Positions 42,998-52,447 of a stretch of 64,000 nt of DNA are shown piece by piece (positions within the stretch are counted from its first letter, which is position 1; each line of letters starts with the position of its first letter). Location of the stretch: contig CP147779.1 of assembly GCA_037308085.1 (NCBI GenBank), forward strand, positions 2,254,895 to 2,318,894, given 5' to 3'. The notes beneath the pieces are model-generated. The model did no database searches. It was not told the origin of the DNA and saw only the letters and a program-made list of their open reading frames with translations. The DNA is from Promethearchaeati archaeon SRVP18_Atabeyarchaeia-1 (GTDB lineage: Archaea > Asgardarchaeota > Atabeyarchaeia > Atabeyarchaeales > Atabeyarchaeaceae). Both the position numbers and the translations under genes were made by a program.

Positions 42998-43639
42998 CTA
43001 CTCTATTGAGATCACCACGTCCTCAGGCGCGACCGACTGACCAGCCGACACTTTGACCTCCTTGACTTTGCCGGTATAGGGCGACGTTATTTCGTTGGCC
43101 ATCTTCATGGCTTCGAGGATCAGGACTACTTCTCCTGCCTTTACCGCGTCGCCTTCTTTGACTCTAACGGAGATTATCTTTCCAGGCATAGGGGGTCTTA
43201 TGATCTTGCCACCCGTACTTGCCACTCTTGCAGACGGTTTGGGCGCTTGCCCTTCTGCCCCCGCGCCAGCGCCTGCAGTGGTCGCTCTCGCCTCTGAAGC
43301 AGATGTCTGAGTCCCTGCCATGGTGTCAACTCTGATCCGAAAAGGGGCCTCGTTGATTCTCACGTTCAGTGTTTTCCCGTTCTGGACGTTTCTGTCCCCC
43401 AGTAAGACCTTATACTCTTTCTCATTGACTTTCAGCTTCATTGCTCCGCTGTTCTCGTCCCTTTCAGTGATAGCTACCGAGAACACTTTGCCATCAATGT
43501 CCACTGTCACCGTCGAAGCGTTTGGCTGTAAATTCGGTTGCTTGACATTCACATCGTGCGTCCTGTCGTCGACCGTCATTTTGAATCTCAATGCTTTTTC
43601 AGCCTCCGAAAGTTGACTTGTCCTCTCCACTTCTCTCAT
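42998..43639 (-). CDS. biotin carboxyl carrier (biotinyl/lipoyl-attachment) subunit
   Basis: 213 aa. C-terminal biotinyl domain with 'LILEAMKMANEI' preceded by an Ala/Gly/Pro-rich linker. The start overlaps the upstream 5S gene stop (ATGA), implying translational coupling. Confidence 0.8.
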   Translation of the reverse strand: MREVERTSQLSEAEKALRFKMTVDDRTHDVNVKQPNLQPNASTVTVDIDGKVFSVAITERDENSGAMKLKVNEKEYKVLLGDRNVQNGKTLNVRINEAPFRIRVDTMAGTQTSASEARATTAGAGAGAEGQAPKPSARVASTGGKIIRPPMPGKIISVRVKEGDAVKAGEVVLILEAMKMANEITSPYTGKVKEVKVSAGQSVAPEDVVISIE

Positions 43640-45165
43640 AATGTGGTTCTTGATCTTATGAGGTCCTGACGTCCAGCTAGAGCCCAGGGGCTTATGCCAG
43701 TTGAAGACTTTCTCGCAAGTTTCGGTTCCAGCCCTGAAACTGGGTTCCTATTATTCGTTAGCCGGTCTGCAATTGTCGCCGCGACGGCTGCCAAAGCGTT
43801 ATCGCTACTATTCAGTCCGTTATCTTTCAACTCTCTCATTTCGAAAAACCCTAACGCCACTTGGGGAAACAGTACGAAGGACAGGATGTCTTCCTCGCTC
43901 CTAGCCTTTGCTCCCAGCTCCTTCCGCGCCTTCTCGAATTCCGGCTTGAGCAAGTCAGCGGGTCTACAAGTTATCGGGTCCTCGTTACCGATAACCTTCT
44001 TCTTCACCTCTTCATCAATTGGTGATGGAGGAGCGCCATAGTACCCCTTGACATACTGCTTCACCTCATTGGGGATAACCTTGTAACGTTCTCCGACGAC
44101 TACGTTTAGCACTGCTTGGGTTCCGACTATCTGCGACGTTGGGGTTACAAGAGGAGGATAGCCAAGCTCTCTTCTCACTATAGGAACCTCCTTGAGGACC
44201 TCGCCGAGCTTGCCAAGCGCATTTTGCTCCCTTAGCTGATTGACAAGATTTGTGGTCATGCCGCCAGGTATCTGGTATACGAGCACGTTTGTATCCACGC
44301 CAGGTAGAGTGCTTTCGAACTTCGAGTACTTCTTTCTGATCTCAGCAAAGTAGTCAGCTATCTCATTGAGGAGCGCGAGATCCAAACCGGTGTCTCTGGG
44401 AGTGCCCTTAGCCATGTACACGATTGTCTCAGTTGGGGGTTGAGAAGTGGCCAGCGACATTGAGGATATCGCTGTGTCAATAATGTCGACACCCGCGCCT
44501 ATTGCCTCCCAGCATGTTCCGACCGCCATTCCACTTGTGCAGTGAGTGTGCAAGTGGATGGGAAGGTCGATCTCCCTCTTGAGACCCTCGATTAGCGCTC
44601 TGGCTTCTCCAGGAGAGAGAAGACCAGCCATGTCTTTGATGCATATAGTGTCCGCGTCTAGTTCCATGAGCTTCTTCGCGAAGTTGACAAAAAGGTTCAC
44701 GTCGTGAACAGGGCTAATAGTATAGGATAGCGCGCCTTCAACCTTTGCTCCAGCCTTCTTAGCCGCCTTCATTGCCTTCTCAAGGTTACGAATGTCGTTG
44801 ACCGCATCGAAAACCCTGAAGACATCTATTCCGTTCTGGGCCGCCTTTGAGACGAATTTCTCCACCACGTCATCTGGATAGTGTCGGTATCCAACTATGT
44901 TCTGCCCACGCAGCAGCATCTGCATCTGAGTGTTCGGCATCGCCTTCCGTAGGCGCCGCAAGCGTTCCCATGGATCTTCATTTAGGAATCTTAGACATGT
45001 GTCGAAGGTTGCTCCGCCCCACATCTCGAGTGACCAGTAGCCTACTTGGTCAAGCTTCTCCGCTACGGGCAACATGTCTTCAGTCCTCATGCGGGTCGCC
45101 AGCAGGGACTGGTGGGCGTCTCTCAGAACAGTGTCAGTTATTCTCAGGGGTGAGCCTGTAGCCAA
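43636..45165 (-). CDS. 5S-type carboxyltransferase (pyruvate carboxylase subunit B / oxaloacetate decarboxylase alpha-like) lacking a biotinyl domain
   Basis: 509 aa. 'RITDTVLRDAHQSLLATRM' TIM-barrel carboxyltransferase N-terminus and 'HLHTHCTSGMA'. No AMKM motif at the C-terminus. Confidence 0.8.
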   Translation of the reverse strand: MATGSPLRITDTVLRDAHQSLLATRMRTEDMLPVAEKLDQVGYWSLEMWGGATFDTCLRFLNEDPWERLRRLRKAMPNTQMQMLLRGQNIVGYRHYPDDVVEKFVSKAAQNGIDVFRVFDAVNDIRNLEKAMKAAKKAGAKVEGALSYTISPVHDVNLFVNFAKKLMELDADTICIKDMAGLLSPGEARALIEGLKREIDLPIHLHTHCTSGMAVGTCWEAIGAGVDIIDTAISSMSLATSQPPTETIVYMAKGTPRDTGLDLALLNEIADYFAEIRKKYSKFESTLPGVDTNVLVYQIPGGMTTNLVNQLREQNALGKLGEVLKEVPIVRRELGYPPLVTPTSQIVGTQAVLNVVVGERYKVIPNEVKQYVKGYYGAPPSPIDEEVKKKVIGNEDPITCRPADLLKPEFEKARKELGAKARSEEDILSFVLFPQVALGFFEMRELKDNGLNSSDNALAAVAATIADRLTNNRNPVSGLEPKLARKSSTGISPWALAGRQDLIRSRTTL

Positions 45166-45354
45166 GATGATCCACCTCTAGTAAACAGAAAGACGTTGCG
45201 ATCCAAGTCAAACTCATCGGAAGTTCAAGAGAAAGTAGGAGATTACTTGTGTTATTTATATCTTTAGCAGCAGATCAAGTCACATTGATGACGCAGACTT
45301 CGTCAATTCTCATGCTCTAGCTTAATAAGACAGCTCCAGGAATCACAAATACCT

Positions 45355-45642
45355 ATGAAAGCATACAAATGCTCCCAATGCGGAGGCGAGATGTGTGCCT
45401 CGACGGGGCCGCTTCACCCAATGGAGGCCATTGCCGAAGATATGCTGGAGCAGGGAGTAATCTTCCGGTGTTCTGGCTGCTCTTTGTATTTGACAAGCGC
45501 ATCTGGCATCGAATGCCCGACGTGTGGGAGGAAGACGCTGACTGCATCACTCGATGAGAGTCCTAAACGCGGCTCGCCAAATGCGAGGAAAGCAACTGGA
45601 GCGGTTACATGCCAGTCTTGCGGTTGGCGGCAGAAACTATGA
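45355..45642 (+). CDS. small zinc-ribbon protein (four CxxC pairs), hypothetical
   Basis: 95 aa: 'CSQCGG', 'CSGCS', 'CPTCGR', 'CQSCG'. Lies between the two carboxyltransferase genes on the opposite strand. Confidence 0.3.
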   Translation: MKAYKCSQCGGEMCASTGPLHPMEAIAEDMLEQGVIFRCSGCSLYLTSASGIECPTCGRKTLTASLDESPKRGSPNARKATGAVTCQSCGWRQKL

Positions 45643-45703
45643 TTATTGCGGATGTGAAGCTTCCGGCGTTCCTCGTCCATATTCTGGAGGCAGTGGGGGA
45701 GTG

Positions 45704-47257
45704 TCAAAGAGGTATGTTGCCGTGTTTTCTTGCAGGTCGGCTCGTCCTCTTGTTTACGAGCGTCTCCAGTGCATTGATCAACCTCGGCCTAGTTTCCTTT
45801 GGCTCTATGACGTCGTCTATGTAACCCCTTTCCGCGGTTATGTAGGGGTTTGCAAATTTCTCGCGGTACTCTTTCACAAGTCGCTCTCTTTCTTTCGCGG
45901 GATCTCCGGCCTTTTCGATTTCCTTTCTGAATATGATGTTGACAGCACCGTCAGGACCCATGACAGCGAGTTCTGCTCCTGGCCAAGCAACATTGTAGTC
46001 GGCCCCCACGTTTTTTGAATTTAGTACGTCAAAGGCTCCACCGTAGGCCTTGCGGGTTATCACTGTAAGTCTTGGCACCGTGGCTTCACAAAACGCGTAA
46101 AGCAACTTTGATCCGTGCCTGATTATGCCACCGTGTTCTTGAATAGTTCCTGGCAGGAATCCTGGGACATCGACGAAAGTGAGAATGGGTATGTTGAAGC
46201 AGTCACAGAACCTGACGAATCTTGCACCTTTCGTAGAGGAATCAATGTCCAGCGTTCCAGCGAGGAACTTCGGGTTGTTTCCAACTATTCCGATAGGTCT
46301 CCCGCCGAGCCTGCCAAAACCGATTATAATGTTCTGCGCCCACAATGGTTGAACCTCTAGGAACTCTCCATTATCAACGATATGTCTGACAACATCTCGC
46401 ATATCGTACGGCTTGTTGGGGTCAACGGGCACTATGTGATTCAGCTCTTCGTCCACCCTGTTCGGGTCATCACCAGTCTCGACAATTGGTGGATCCTCCA
46501 TGTTGTTGGAAGGTATGTAGCTGAGTAGCTTCCTGACTATGTCGAAGCACTCTTCCTCCGAGTTCGCGGAGAAGTGGGCGACTCCACTCTTCTGCATATG
46601 CACGGGAGCTCCCCCCAGCTGCTCCGATGTGACCTCCTCCTTTGTAACCGATTTCACGACATCGGGCCCTGTTATGTGCATGTATGATATCTTGTCCACC
46701 ATGACTATGAAGTCAGTCATCGCCGGTGAATAGACTGCACCACCAGCGCATGGTCCCATAATAGCTGAGATCTGTGGAATCACGCCAGAACTCAGCACAT
46801 TCCTATAGAAGATGTCAGCATAGCCTACTAGACTTGAGACACCCTCCTGTATCCTCGCACCTGCGCCATCATTCAAGCCTATGAGGGGAGCGCCGTTTCT
46901 GGCCGCCAAGTCCATTATTTTGCAGACCTTCTGGGCGAAAGCCTCCCCAAGAGAACCGCCAAAAACGGTGAAATCCTGTGAGAAGATATACACCAGTCTG
47001 CCGCTTATTCTCCCCCATCCAGTGATGACGGCGTCGCCGAGAGGCCTGTTCTTTTCGGCTCCAAACATCATTGACTGATGTCTGACGAAGGGATCTACTT
47101 CTACGAAGCTTCCCTCGTCCAGTAGCTTCTCGACCCTCTCTCGGGCAGTAAGTTTCCCCGATTCGTGCTGCTTATCGAAGCGCCCTTTTCCCCCGCCAAG
47201 TTTACTTTGTTCCCTCATTTCCTTGAGCTTCTTTATCTTATCCTCCATGGTAGACAT
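45704..47257 (-). CDS. 12S-type carboxyltransferase (propionyl-CoA carboxylase beta / methylmalonyl-CoA decarboxylase alpha family)
   Basis: 517 aa, two crotonase-like CT domains ('[20 protein letters not shown]', '[35 protein letters not shown]'). Confidence 0.85.
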
Positions 47258-47339
47258 CCTGCAACGTCACACCCCAATATGCGAATCTCGACGATCAGAA
47301 TGAATGGCAGTCGTACAAACGTGGATATTCAACACCGAC

Positions 47340-48314
47340 CTAGTGAGGTAATTTCTTCACTTTGCCCTTTATATTCTTTCTCGTTTTCGTCGCCAAGTGA
47401 ATGCAGTCCCCCGACAGAATGGTGATCTCCTTCGCATTCCTTGTTCTCAGGATCAGGCCACCCCCAGGTGATATTCCTCTTCCAGTTCCCTCGTAAGTTG
47501 CCCCTTCACATTCTAATCTCACATCTGAACCAATGGTTGTGCACAGTCCCTCGTATTCTGACCAAAGCTCTTTGTCTTCTCCCCTTAAGAACAGGTCGTA
47601 ATGGGTGTCCATCGTTTTCAGAATGCCGGCTATCAAGTCGTCTATTGATACGTTCTGTCTGACAAGTTTCCTTACTGATGTGGCTTCTGTCTTTAATCCT
47701 CGCGGCAGAGAGTCAGGATCAGTATTGGCGTTTATTCCTATACCAACGACCACGAACAGAGGCGTTTCACCTTGAAAGGTGCCTTCAGCTAGTATGCCGC
47801 AGATCTTCCTCTCCCCGACAAGAACGTCATTAGGCCACTTTAGCACGGCATCAATGGCGTAGAGCGTCCTCAGGGACTTGGCTACGGACAAGCCAGCAAG
47901 CAGAGTTAGCTTCTGAAGGGGGCGAATAGATGGGGGTCTCAATATGACAGACATCCAGACTCCGCCACGAGGAGAAAACCATTCCCTACCAAGTCGCCCT
48001 CTCCCAGCGCTCTGTGAGCCAGCAATTATGACGGTTCCTTCGGCTGCGCCCTCATCTGCCATCTTCTTGGCTTCATCGTTGGTTGATGAGGTCTCATCCA
48101 GATAGACCATTTCTCCTCCAATGATGCGCGTATGAAGGATTCGCCTTATGTTCTCGACCGATACGTTATCCTTAGCGGAGTTGCGCGCAAGGTTCTTGTC
48201 AATTCGCCTCAACGTGGAATCACACGCCCATCTCAAGACGATTGGTGTTAGGATACATAGATATGACATTGGTTTCTCTGGACCATCGAGAGATGTGGCA
48301 ATCGCCTCCTTCAC
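47340..48314 (-). CDS. birA: bifunctional biotin-[acetyl-CoA-carboxylase] ligase / HTH regulator
   Basis: 324 aa. N-terminal HTH, catalytic 'GRGRLGREW' (GRGRxGRxW) motif, C-terminal SH3-like domain. Confidence 0.8.
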   Translation of the reverse strand: MKEAIATSLDGPEKPMSYLCILTPIVLRWACDSTLRRIDKNLARNSAKDNVSVENIRRILHTRIIGGEMVYLDETSSTNDEAKKMADEGAAEGTVIIAGSQSAGRGRLGREWFSPRGGVWMSVILRPPSIRPLQKLTLLAGLSVAKSLRTLYAIDAVLKWPNDVLVGERKICGILAEGTFQGETPLFVVVGIGINANTDPDSLPRGLKTEATSVRKLVRQNVSIDDLIAGILKTMDTHYDLFLRGEDKELWSEYEGLCTTIGSDVRLECEGATYEGTGRGISPGGGLILRTRNAKEITILSGDCIHLATKTRKNIKGKVKKLPH

Positions 48315-48387
48315 AGACAGCCAAACTGCATGAGTGGATCCATTACGGTTCTTATGAAGAACCTGGGAAATTTGCTCTAGATTTTGA

Positions 48388-48792
48388 TTACTTCTTCGGT
48401 GTGCTTAGTTCGAGTAGGACACCATGCATGCTCTTTGGGTGAACGAAGGCTATCTTGTTTCCATCTGCTCCGATCCTTGGCTTCTTATCTATCAGTTCGA
48501 CTCCTGACTTGCTTAGCTTTGCCAACATCTTGTCTATATCATCGACTTCCAGGGATATGTGGTGGATCCCTTCACCCCGCTTGGCAATGAACCGACCTAT
48601 GGGACCTTCCGGGTCTGTCGACTCCATGAGCTCTATTCTTGATTCGCCGATCGGGATCATTGCAGATTTCACTTTCTGCTCATCAACTGTCTCAATGCCA
48701 GATACTCTTAGACCAAGAACATCTGAATACAACTTTATTGCCTCATTCATGTTGTTAACGGCGACGCCAATATGACTGATCTTCTTGAACAT
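48388..48792 (-). CDS. methylmalonyl-CoA epimerase (VOC family)
   Basis: 134 aa. 'HIGVAVNNMNEAIKLY' and 'GIHHISLEVDDID' metal-binding modules of the glyoxalase-fold MCE. Confidence 0.75.
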   Translation of the reverse strand: MFKKISHIGVAVNNMNEAIKLYSDVLGLRVSGIETVDEQKVKSAMIPIGESRIELMESTDPEGPIGRFIAKRGEGIHHISLEVDDIDKMLAKLSKSGVELIDKKPRIGADGNKIAFVHPKSMHGVLLELSTPKK

Positions 48793-48947
48793 ACACTTCT
48801 CGACCTCCTAGTAGCTTGACGGGGTAAGCACCTTCGGGGTTGAGAGTCCAATAGAAGAGATTTGATATAAGAATCTATTTAGAGTGGAATCATCGGCTTC
48901 CAGTTCGGGAGAATTCCCTATGTGACTGCGCCTTTGGAAGTGCCCAC

Positions 48948-49484
48948 TTAACCTGGGTTGAAGTCAGCACGGGAGTCGAGTTCCGTTCTTCTCAGCATTA
49001 ATGCAGATGTAACCGGGCAAAGCTCTTTGAATTCGGTGGTGTCCCGTATCGGCGCCGGCGCTCTGTTTCGTTTGACTTTATGGAAGCCCAATTGAGCGAA
49101 GAACCGCTCCGCTGAGGTCGTTAGTAGATAGAGTTCTTTTACTCCAACCAGTTCAGCGTTCTCTGTGAGCTCATGAACAAGCGCTTTACCGTAGCCTTTT
49201 CCACGAATCGACTCCTCGACTACCACCGAGCGAAGGAGACCCACGTTCCCGTATACCTCCAATCCACCTATTCCTATAACCTTGGAATGAGCGTATGCAA
49301 CAAACATTGAACCAGCTTTCTGGGAGATATCTTCGAACGGCAGATTGCTGGATTTGAGTAGCTCCTTAATCATAGGAAGATCCAGCCCAGTCGCCTGCCT
49401 TAGCCTTATTTCAACGCTCATACCTTGCACGCTCCTTCCGCCAAGATGCCTACGGTGAGAACTTGGACGCAATAGTGTGATCAT
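48948..49484 (-). CDS. GNAT-family N-acetyltransferase
   Basis: ORF 178 aa (probable start at internal 'MSVEIRLRQ'). 'VVVEESIRGKGYGKALVHEL' acetyl-CoA binding motif. Confidence 0.65.
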   Translation of the reverse strand: MITLLRPSSHRRHLGGRSVQGMSVEIRLRQATGLDLPMIKELLKSSNLPFEDISQKAGSMFVAYAHSKVIGIGGLEVYGNVGLLRSVVVEESIRGKGYGKALVHELTENAELVGVKELYLLTTSAERFFAQLGFHKVKRNRAPAPIRDTTEFKELCPVTSALMLRRTELDSRADFNPG

Positions 49485-49618
49485 GGTAGATAAGGGATTT
49501 GCTCAACAAAGTGAGTGCGGGTCACTTGGGAACAACAATATCCAACGGTAAGCATGTACTGGGAGACAGAACCCTAAAATACACCTTCTCTAGTGCCTAT
49601 AATGCTAGAGGAGATCCC

Positions 49619-50056
49619 ATGAAAGCAGAAAAGATGACGGAAACAGAGCTACTCAAGAAATACTTCATGCACGGAATATTCTTCTCGGTTCTAATGGACG
49701 TCATAGCAATCGGATGGGTTGTCCTCCTGGTCTTTCTAGTAGGCTTTGGCTTCTATATCGGTTTGACAATAGGGTTAGCCTTGCTCTTCATCTTCATGGG
49801 TGCAGTAAACGCCTTCGTAACAAGCAACGTCTGGAATGTCCGTATGCACGCAAACTGGGGATCAGACCTTGTGCATGGCTTCTTTCTTTTCCTCGTATTG
49901 TTCGTCATATCTCTGCCAGCTACAGCCATAGGCAATTTCCTCTTGCCATCCACCAACCCCGCTTCAGTGTTTGTCAAATTCGCTGTTCAGACGATAATTC
50001 TGGCATTTGTCTACGGCTTTGCGGCCAAGGCAGTGGCCGGCACTTGGATCGAATAA
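49619..50056 (+). CDS. small polytopic membrane protein, hypothetical
   Basis: ATG 49619 is preceded by 'gaggag' and a TATA-like 'tataatgc'. About 4 TM helices. The track ORF starts at 49499. Confidence 0.4.
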   Translation: MKAEKMTETELLKKYFMHGIFFSVLMDVIAIGWVVLLVFLVGFGFYIGLTIGLALLFIFMGAVNAFVTSNVWNVRMHANWGSDLVHGFFLFLVLFVISLPATAIGNFLLPSTNPASVFVKFAVQTIILAFVYGFAAKAVAGTWIE

Positions 50057-50304
50057 GGCAATGCCCCGTTCTCGTACCAGGGGCGTAAGCTGCAGACTAG
50101 ACCCCTTAGAGCGACAGATCCCCCCAGACAGGAAGGTTGAGTAAGAAAGAAGACAGTTAATCTTAGTCCCAGCATGTAATTGTGCCAGTTTATTGTCTCT
50201 ATTGAGGCACTCGGTTTAGGCAATCCGATGAGCCAGCATGGCAACAGGGCCATGGAGAAACTCCCAGCGCTGGGCATGGCGCGTCTATTCGGAGACCCCA
50301 CTTT

Positions 50305-52002
50305 TCAGATTATCTCCGGTGCCCTGTACTCTCCATAGACCTCCCTGAGGGCGTCGCATATTTCTCCATTTGTTGCGCACTTTCTTACCGCTTCAATGAT
50401 TGCAGGCATTAGATTTTCGTTGCCCTGCGCCAGTTCCCGTATCTTCTCGAGGGCCTTTTTAGCCTCTTCGTTGTGTCGTTTGGCTTTGAAAGCTTTTAGT
50501 CTCTTCTTCTGTCGTTCCTCCACTTCAGGCTTGACGCGGAGCACCTCCCACGAGAGTTCTTCCTCGATTGCATACTCATTCACGCCGACAATAATGCGGC
50601 CCTTGCTCTCAACTTCCTTCTGGAACCTGTATGCGCTGCTGAGGATCTCCTTCTGCGGATATCCCCTCTCGATGGCCGGAATCATTCCACCCATGTCGTC
50701 GATCTTCTTCATGTAGTCCATTGCCTGACTCTCAATTTCGTTTGTCAAGCTTTCGATGTAGAATGATCCTGCCAGTGGATCAATGGTATTTGTGACTCCG
50801 CCTTCGCTAGCAATTATCTGCTGTGTTCTCAGAGCTATTCTGACTGCTTTTTCAGATGGCAATGCGAGGGCTTCGTCCATAGAGTTGGTATGCAGCGATT
50901 GTGTCCCTCCGAGAACGGATGCCAGCGCTTGAAGTGTTACGCGAACTATGTTGTTCTCCGGTTGCTGCGCCGTGAGGGTCACACCACCCGTCTGTGTGTG
51001 GAATCGGAGCATCATTGACTCGGGGTTCTGTGCCTTAAACCTCTCTTTCATGATCTTAGCCCAAAGCCTTCTCGCGGCTCGGAACTTCGCGACCTCCTCA
51101 AGGAGGTCCATGTGTGATGCGAAGAAGAATGATAATCTCGGCGCGAAAGTGTCAACTTTCAGACCTCGTGATGTGGCGGCATCGACGTAGGCTATTCCAT
51201 CCGCCAAGGTGAATGCAACTTCCTGAACCGCTGTCGCGCCAGCTTCGCGAATATGGTAGCCGCTGATGCTTATGGTATTCCATTTTGGCACGTGCTTGAA
51301 GCAGTAATCAACTATGTCTATTGCGAGTCTCATGGAAGGCTTAGGCGGGAAAATATACGTTCCCCTTGCGATATATTCCTTGAGGACATCGTTCTGAACT
51401 GTTCCTTGAAGAACAGATTCGTCTGCGCCCTGTTTCTCAGCCGTAACTATGTAGAGGGCAAGGATCACGGGAGCCGAGGAATTGATGGTCATGGATGTGC
51501 TGACTTTGCTCAGAGGAATTCCATTGAAAAGGGTCTCCATATCCTCGATGCTGTTTATGGATACGCCTACCTTGCCTACCTCACCGTACGAGAGTTCGTG
51601 ATCCGAGTCGTAACCTATCTGGGTTGGAAGGTCAAAAGCCACGCTAAGCCCTGTCTGCCCTTCCTTCAGCAGGTATTTGAATCGCTGGTTTGTCTCCTCA
51701 GCCGACCCGAAGCCGGCGTATTGCCGCATAGTCCAAAAGCGGCCCCTATACATTGTTGGGTAAACACCTCGGGTTGCCGGGAATTCTCCGGGAAACCCAA
51801 GTTCATGTATGTAATCGGTGCTCCCGACATCCGAGAGAGTATACAGCCTCTTGACGGGTATGTTCGAGGATGATAGGAACTCTTTCTTGCGCTCAGGCGC
51901 TTTCTTCGTGTACTTTGAGAGGGTTGTCTGCTCCCACTTCTTCCGAGCCGCTTCAGTCTCATCGACTTTCTTCTCGTCGTACAAGTGCATTGTTCCCTCC
52001 AA
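50305..52002 (-). CDS. methylmalonyl-CoA mutase, large (catalytic, substrate-binding) subunit
   Basis: 565 aa. '[65 protein letters not shown]' is highly characteristic of the MCM N-terminal barrel. Confidence 0.9.
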
Positions 52003-52009
52003 GAGACTG

Positions 52010-52447
52010 CTATTCTCCTTTCCTGATCCTTTTCCTTAGGTACTCAACGAGGGTGCTCGTTGGTGTCCCTGGCCCAAACACCTCGTCGACGCCCATCTTC
52101 TTCAGCTCTGGGATGTCACTCTTGGGTATGATCCCTCCTCCCCATACCAGCATGTCTCCAGCGCCCTCCTTTCTCAGGAGCTCTATGACCTTCTTGAAGT
52201 AGTGTTTGTGGGTGCCGGAGAGTATGCTTAACCCTATAGCGTCAACGTCTTCTTGAACCGCGGATTTGACGATCTTCTCTGGTGTCTGCCTTATTCCAGT
52301 GTAGATGACCTCCATTCCCGCGTCTCTGAGAGCGAGGGACACAACCTTGGCTCCCCGATCGTGACCATCCAAACCGGGTTTTGCTATCAGGACTCTAATC
52401 TTTGCCTTATTTGCGCTTTCGGCCATGCTGATCAGCCTCAACGACAA
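52010..52447 (-). CDS. methylmalonyl-CoA mutase, small B12-binding subunit
   Basis: 145 aa. '[10 protein letters not shown]' cobalamin-binding DxHxxG motif. 8 bp from the large-subunit gene. Confidence 0.9.

What the first reader, a model, noticed from the sequence alone, without database searches (positions are those of the whole stretch)
42998..52447. Methylmalonyl-CoA cluster whose carboxylase subunit set matches methylmalonyl-CoA:pyruvate transcarboxylase (12S + 5S + biotin carrier) rather than an ATP-dependent carboxylase
Within 9.5 kb on one strand lie the MCM large and B12-binding subunits, an epimerase, BirA, a 12S carboxyltransferase, a 5S carboxyltransferase that lacks its own biotinyl domain, and a separate biotin carrier. 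The carrier's start overlaps the 5S stop (ATGA), implying translational coupling. There is no biotin carboxylase (ATP-grasp) gene and no membrane beta (Na+ pump) subunit in the window. That is exactly the composition of the Propionibacterium transcarboxylase (12S/5S/1.3S). With mutase and epimerase it gives a complete Wood-Werkman-type propionate/succinate route, which is uncommon in archaea. The N-terminal half of the 213-aa carrier carries an internally repeated, non-biotinyl region of unknown role.
Basis: partly seen in the sequence, partly recalled or inferred. Interest (0 to 1): 0.6.

Follow-up and report, generated by a model that had tools for sequence, protein, structure and literature searches.

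The report
Predicted biotin transcarboxylase cluster, Asgard archaeon
An Asgard archaeon (Atabeyarchaeia) carries the genes for a probable ATP-independent enzyme that passes a carboxyl group between methylmalonyl-CoA and pyruvate; the gene set was already noted for Asgard archaea in 2020, but its biotin carrier has an extra docking domain like the one in propionyl-CoA carboxylase.

Summary
On the minus strand of 42998-52447 lie both methylmalonyl-CoA mutase subunits, an epimerase, BirA, a 12S-type carboxyltransferase, a 5S-type carboxyltransferase with no biotinyl domain, and a separate biotin carrier. The window has no biotin carboxylase and no Na+-pump beta subunit.

The window is the complete Atabeyarchaeia-1 genome. 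Its published KofamScan table lists neither gene anywhere. A methylmalonyl-CoA:pyruvate transcarboxylase-type enzyme is therefore the best reading (confidence about 0.6).

- **Context:** in 80 related loci, fused PycB-type genes have an ATP-grasp gene directly upstream (36 of 37). Split 5S genes next to a 12S gene never do (0 of 14).
- **Profiles:** group profiles place this 5S, and the Propionibacterium 5S, with the split+12S group.
- **Caveats:** 3 of the 14 split+12S loci do carry a biotin carboxylase or beta pump nearby. The 5S fails the NCBIfam 5S equivalog cut-off. NJ phylogeny is unresolved. A complete Wood-Werkman cycle is not shown.
- **Prior work:** Imachi et al. 2020 already inferred this enzyme for Asgard archaea.
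- **New detail:** the carrier's N-terminal half is an eight-stranded barrel matching the BT domain of propionyl-CoA carboxylase alpha.
- **Carrier start:** the ATGA overlap exists, but the likely start is a TTG 48 nt downstream.

The parts
52010..52447 (-). Methylmalonyl-CoA mutase B12-binding small subunit. The public gene call is 138 aa (52010-52426).
   Evidence: PF02310 E 3.4e-27; TIGR00640 167.1 bits, cut-off 57.45. K01849 in the published table, gene 2272.
50305..52002 (-). Methylmalonyl-CoA mutase large (catalytic) subunit.
   Evidence: PF01642 E 2.1e-231; TIGR00641 833 bits, cut-off 303.8. K01848, gene 2271.
48388..48792 (-). Methylmalonyl-CoA epimerase.
   Evidence: TIGR03081 163.2 bits, cut-off 114.95. 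K05606, gene 2267.
47340..48314 (-). Biotin-protein ligase BirA. The longest ORF is 324 aa; the public gene call is 256 aa (47340-48110).
   Evidence: PF03099 and PF02237; TIGR00121 199 bits, cut-off 83.1. BirA also lies directly upstream of 12S in Methanomassiliicoccales loci L023, L024 and L026.
45704..47257 (-). 12S-type acyl-CoA carboxyltransferase (PccB/MmdA/12S family), 517 aa. Asp410 aligns with Asp422 of Streptomyces PccB.
   Evidence: PF01039 E 6.6e-200. TIGR01117 mmdA 826.5 bits, below its 998.8 cut-off. Best solved relatives are PccB 1vrg (705 bits), then the Propionibacterium 12S 1on3 (586 bits). NCBI name: acyl-CoA carboxylase subunit beta, WXG44548.1.
45355..45642 (+). Unannotated 95-aa Zn-ribbon ORF with four CxxC pairs, on the opposite strand between 12S and 5S. 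It splits them into separate transcription units. Its role is unknown and it is not claimed as part of the enzyme.
   Evidence: Translation. No Pfam hit. 55% identity over all 95 aa at the same position in L067, where the surrounding intergenic DNA is not alignable. Not present in the NCBI annotation.
43636..45165 (-). 5S-type pyruvate/oxaloacetate carboxyltransferase, 509 aa, without a biotinyl domain. Metal and active-site motifs are conserved: RDAHQS 15-20, IKDMAG 176-181, HLHTHCT 204-210.
   Evidence: PF00682 and PF02436 only. PRK09282 786.9 bits; oadA 743.9 bits, below its 756.5 cut-off; PRK12330 (5S) 598.9 bits, below its 827 cut-off. PDB relatives: 5ks8_C 578 bits, 2nx9 548, 1rqb 494. 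Best on the split+12S group profile, 765.8 bits. Motif positions.
43639..43830 (-). C-terminal tail of 5S (residues 446-509): an amphipathic segment LAAVAATIADRL followed by a conserved S-P-W-x-x-x-G-R motif. It is shared by 5S genes that sit next to a 12S gene. Proposed, but untested, to tether 5S to the carrier or to 12S.
   Evidence: Comparison of tails across loci. The tail is absent or replaced in fused PycB-type proteins.
42998..43639 (-). Biotin carrier. It is 213 aa from the ATG that overlaps the 5S stop; the more likely form is 197 aa from the TTG at 43591.
   Evidence: PF00364 E 1.5e-19. MmdC NF047903 89.6 bits, below its 200 cut-off. NCBI WXG44546.1 is 197 aa. Start context.
43322..43594 (-). 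Carrier residues 16-106: four beta-hairpins that form an eight-stranded barrel, BT-domain-like and lacking the central helix.
43214..43321 (-). Ala/Gly/Thr-rich flexible linker of the carrier (residues 107-142).
   Evidence: pLDDT below 50 for residues 108-142. This region is poorly conserved in alignment A1.
43001..43213 (-). Biotinyl domain of the carrier (residues 143-213). The biotin-accepting lysine is K179, in EAMKM (43103-43105).

Best explanation
The cluster most likely encodes a methylmalonyl-CoA:pyruvate carboxyltransferase-type enzyme (a transcarboxylase, working like EC 2.1.3.1), together with the mutase and epimerase that link it to succinyl-CoA.

**Mechanism (inferred from the families)**
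1. BirA biotinylates K179 of the carrier.
2. The 12S subunit, a PccB-like hexamer, moves CO2 between (S)-methylmalonyl-CoA and biotin.
3. The swinging biotinyl domain carries the CO2 to the 5S subunit.
4. The 5S subunit moves it to or from pyruvate/oxaloacetate.

No ATP is used and no Na+ is pumped.

**Assembly (inferred from structure prediction)**
- The carrier is in effect the BT-BCCP part of a propionyl-CoA carboxylase alpha chain without its biotin carboxylase domain.
- Its eight-stranded BT-like barrel probably docks on the 12S hexamer, as the BT domain of PCC alpha docks on PCC beta.
- The conserved C-terminal tail of 5S may tether 5S to that barrel.

**Direction is open**
- Succinate to propionate (fermentative), or
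- Propionyl-CoA from amino-acid breakdown plus oxaloacetate, giving succinyl-CoA and then ATP through succinyl-CoA synthetase.

**What is shown and what is inferred**
- Shown: gene content, domain architecture, and absence of the energy-coupling subunits from the window.
- From a published table: their absence from the complete genome.
- Inferred: the catalytic cycle, the assembly and the physiological role.
For: 1. **Composition.** 12S, a 5S without BCCP, a separate carrier and BirA, next to the epimerase and the mutase.
2. **No energy-coupling partner in the window.** tblastn with biotin carboxylase and OAD_beta finds nothing better than E = 0.77.
3. **No partner in the genome, per published data.** The window is Atabeyarchaeia-1, a complete 2,808,651-bp genome.
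   - The stored KofamScan table covers all of Atabeya-1.
   - It holds the word 'carboxylase' only six times, for rbcL, birA and K01966.
   - It has no 'pyruvate carboxylase', 'biotin carboxylase', 'oxaloacetate decarboxylase', K01959, K01960, K01961, K01571, K01572 or 'carboxybiotin'.
   - The paper's supplementary text says both groups lack glutaconyl-CoA decarboxylase.
4. **Chemistry (established knowledge).** With two different carboxyltransferases, one carrier, no biotin carboxylase and no beta subunit, transcarboxylation is the only complete biotin cycle.
5. **Context statistics in 80 species-representative loci.**
   - Fused PycB-type: an ATP-grasp gene ends within 500 bp upstream in 36 of 37.
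   - Split 5S next to 12S: 0 of 14.
   - The 12S-5S-carrier order is conserved in Thermoplasmata, Methanomassiliicoccales, Anaerolineae and Promethearchaeati LC30.
   - The mutase is linked to the module in L005, L047 and L067.
6. **Group profiles.**

| Protein | split+12S | fused+BC | short split |
|---|---|---|---|
| This 5S | 765.8 | 726.9 | 737.0 |
| Propionibacterium 5S | 618.8 | 588.5 | 600.0 |
| M. flagellatus PycB | 683.2 | 704.9 | 695.1 |
| Vibrio OadA | 668.7 | 654.8 | 674.0 |

   All three experimentally characterised controls score best on their expected group.
7. **Carrier N-domain is a BT-like barrel**, and the 12S is closest to PccB.
8. **Independent prior inference.** Imachi et al. 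2020 reached the same conclusion for Asgard archaea.
Against: - **Equivalog cut-offs are missed.**
   - The 5S misses the NCBIfam cut-off for the Propionibacterium-type 5S (598.9 against 827). It scores higher on the PycB and OadA models.
   - The 12S scores below the mmdA cut-off.
   - The carrier scores below the MmdC cut-off.
- **Phylogeny does not decide.** NJ bootstraps at deep nodes are 32% or lower, so affinity to archaeal fused PycB (Methanothrix, L034) cannot be excluded.
- **The module is not diagnostic alone.** Three of 14 split+12S loci elsewhere have a partner nearby: L079 has OAD_beta directly after the carrier, L060 has a biotin carboxylase plus carrier 1.6 kb away, and L047 has a BC-CT fusion.
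- **Genome-wide absence is indirect.** It rests on an above-threshold KofamScan list, in which the 5S and the carrier themselves received no KO. I could not search the genome directly.
- **Not one operon.** 12S and 5S-carrier are separated by an opposite-strand gene.
- **No functional data.** No enzymatic or transcript evidence for these genes was found. The genome also encodes a biotin-independent methylmalonyl-CoA decarboxylase (K11264, gene 1844), which could make propionyl-CoA without this enzyme.
Confidence: 0.6

Rival explanations
1. The three proteins are the carboxyltransferase and carrier parts of ATP-dependent carboxylases: propionyl-CoA carboxylase (12S + carrier) and a split two-subunit pyruvate carboxylase (5S + carrier). 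Both would share a biotin carboxylase encoded elsewhere in the genome and missed by annotation.
For: - The 5S scores highest on the PycB model PRK09282 (786.9 bits) and on PDB 5ks8_C, a PycB.
- The 12S is closest to PccB and was given K01966.
- The carrier's N-domain is the BT domain typical of PCC alpha.
- L060 and L047 show that such modules can sit beside a biotin carboxylase.
- Archaea with separate AccC, AccB and PccB genes are known (own knowledge).
Against: - No biotin carboxylase in the window.
- No 'carboxylase' KO other than rbcL, birA and pccB in the complete genome's published table. The biotin carboxylase domain is highly conserved and rarely falls below KO thresholds (own knowledge).
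- 0 of 14 split+12S loci have an adjacent ATP-grasp gene, against 36 of 37 fused PycB loci.
- The group profile prefers split+12S by 39 bits over fused+BC.
Confidence: 0.12
2. The proteins are the soluble subunits of Na+-translocating decarboxylases: methylmalonyl-CoA decarboxylase (alpha = 12S) and oxaloacetate decarboxylase (alpha = 5S). They would share the carrier and a membrane beta subunit encoded elsewhere.
For: - Best NCBIfam names are mmdA, MmdC and oadA.
- L079 (Anaerolineae) has 12S-5S-carrier followed directly by OAD_beta.
- Multi-hairpin carriers also occur fused to OadG-like membrane anchors.
Against: - No OAD_beta in the window.
- No oxaloacetate, methylmalonyl-CoA (biotin-type) or glutaconyl-CoA decarboxylase beta KO in the genome table. 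The paper states that glutaconyl-CoA decarboxylase is absent.
- All the equivalog scores are below their cut-offs.
- No OadG-like or delta-like small membrane subunit lies in the cluster.
Confidence: 0.07
3. 12S and 5S-carrier are functionally independent neighbours. For example, 5S and the carrier could act with an unknown partner, or one of the genes could be a relic, so that no physical three-subunit complex forms.
For: - An opposite-strand gene and a 540-bp gap separate 12S from 5S, so they are transcribed separately.
- The Hermodarchaeota 5S (L004, 70% identical) has neither 12S nor a carrier nearby.
- The genome has an alternative, biotin-independent methylmalonyl-CoA decarboxylase.
Against: - The 12S-5S-carrier order is conserved across Asgard, Thermoplasmata, Methanomassiliicoccales and Anaerolineae.
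- BirA sits next to 12S, while the only carrier gene found in the window sits next to 5S.
- A BT-type docking domain on the carrier fits a PccB-like 12S.
- All genes are intact, and the active-site motifs are conserved.
Confidence: 0.12

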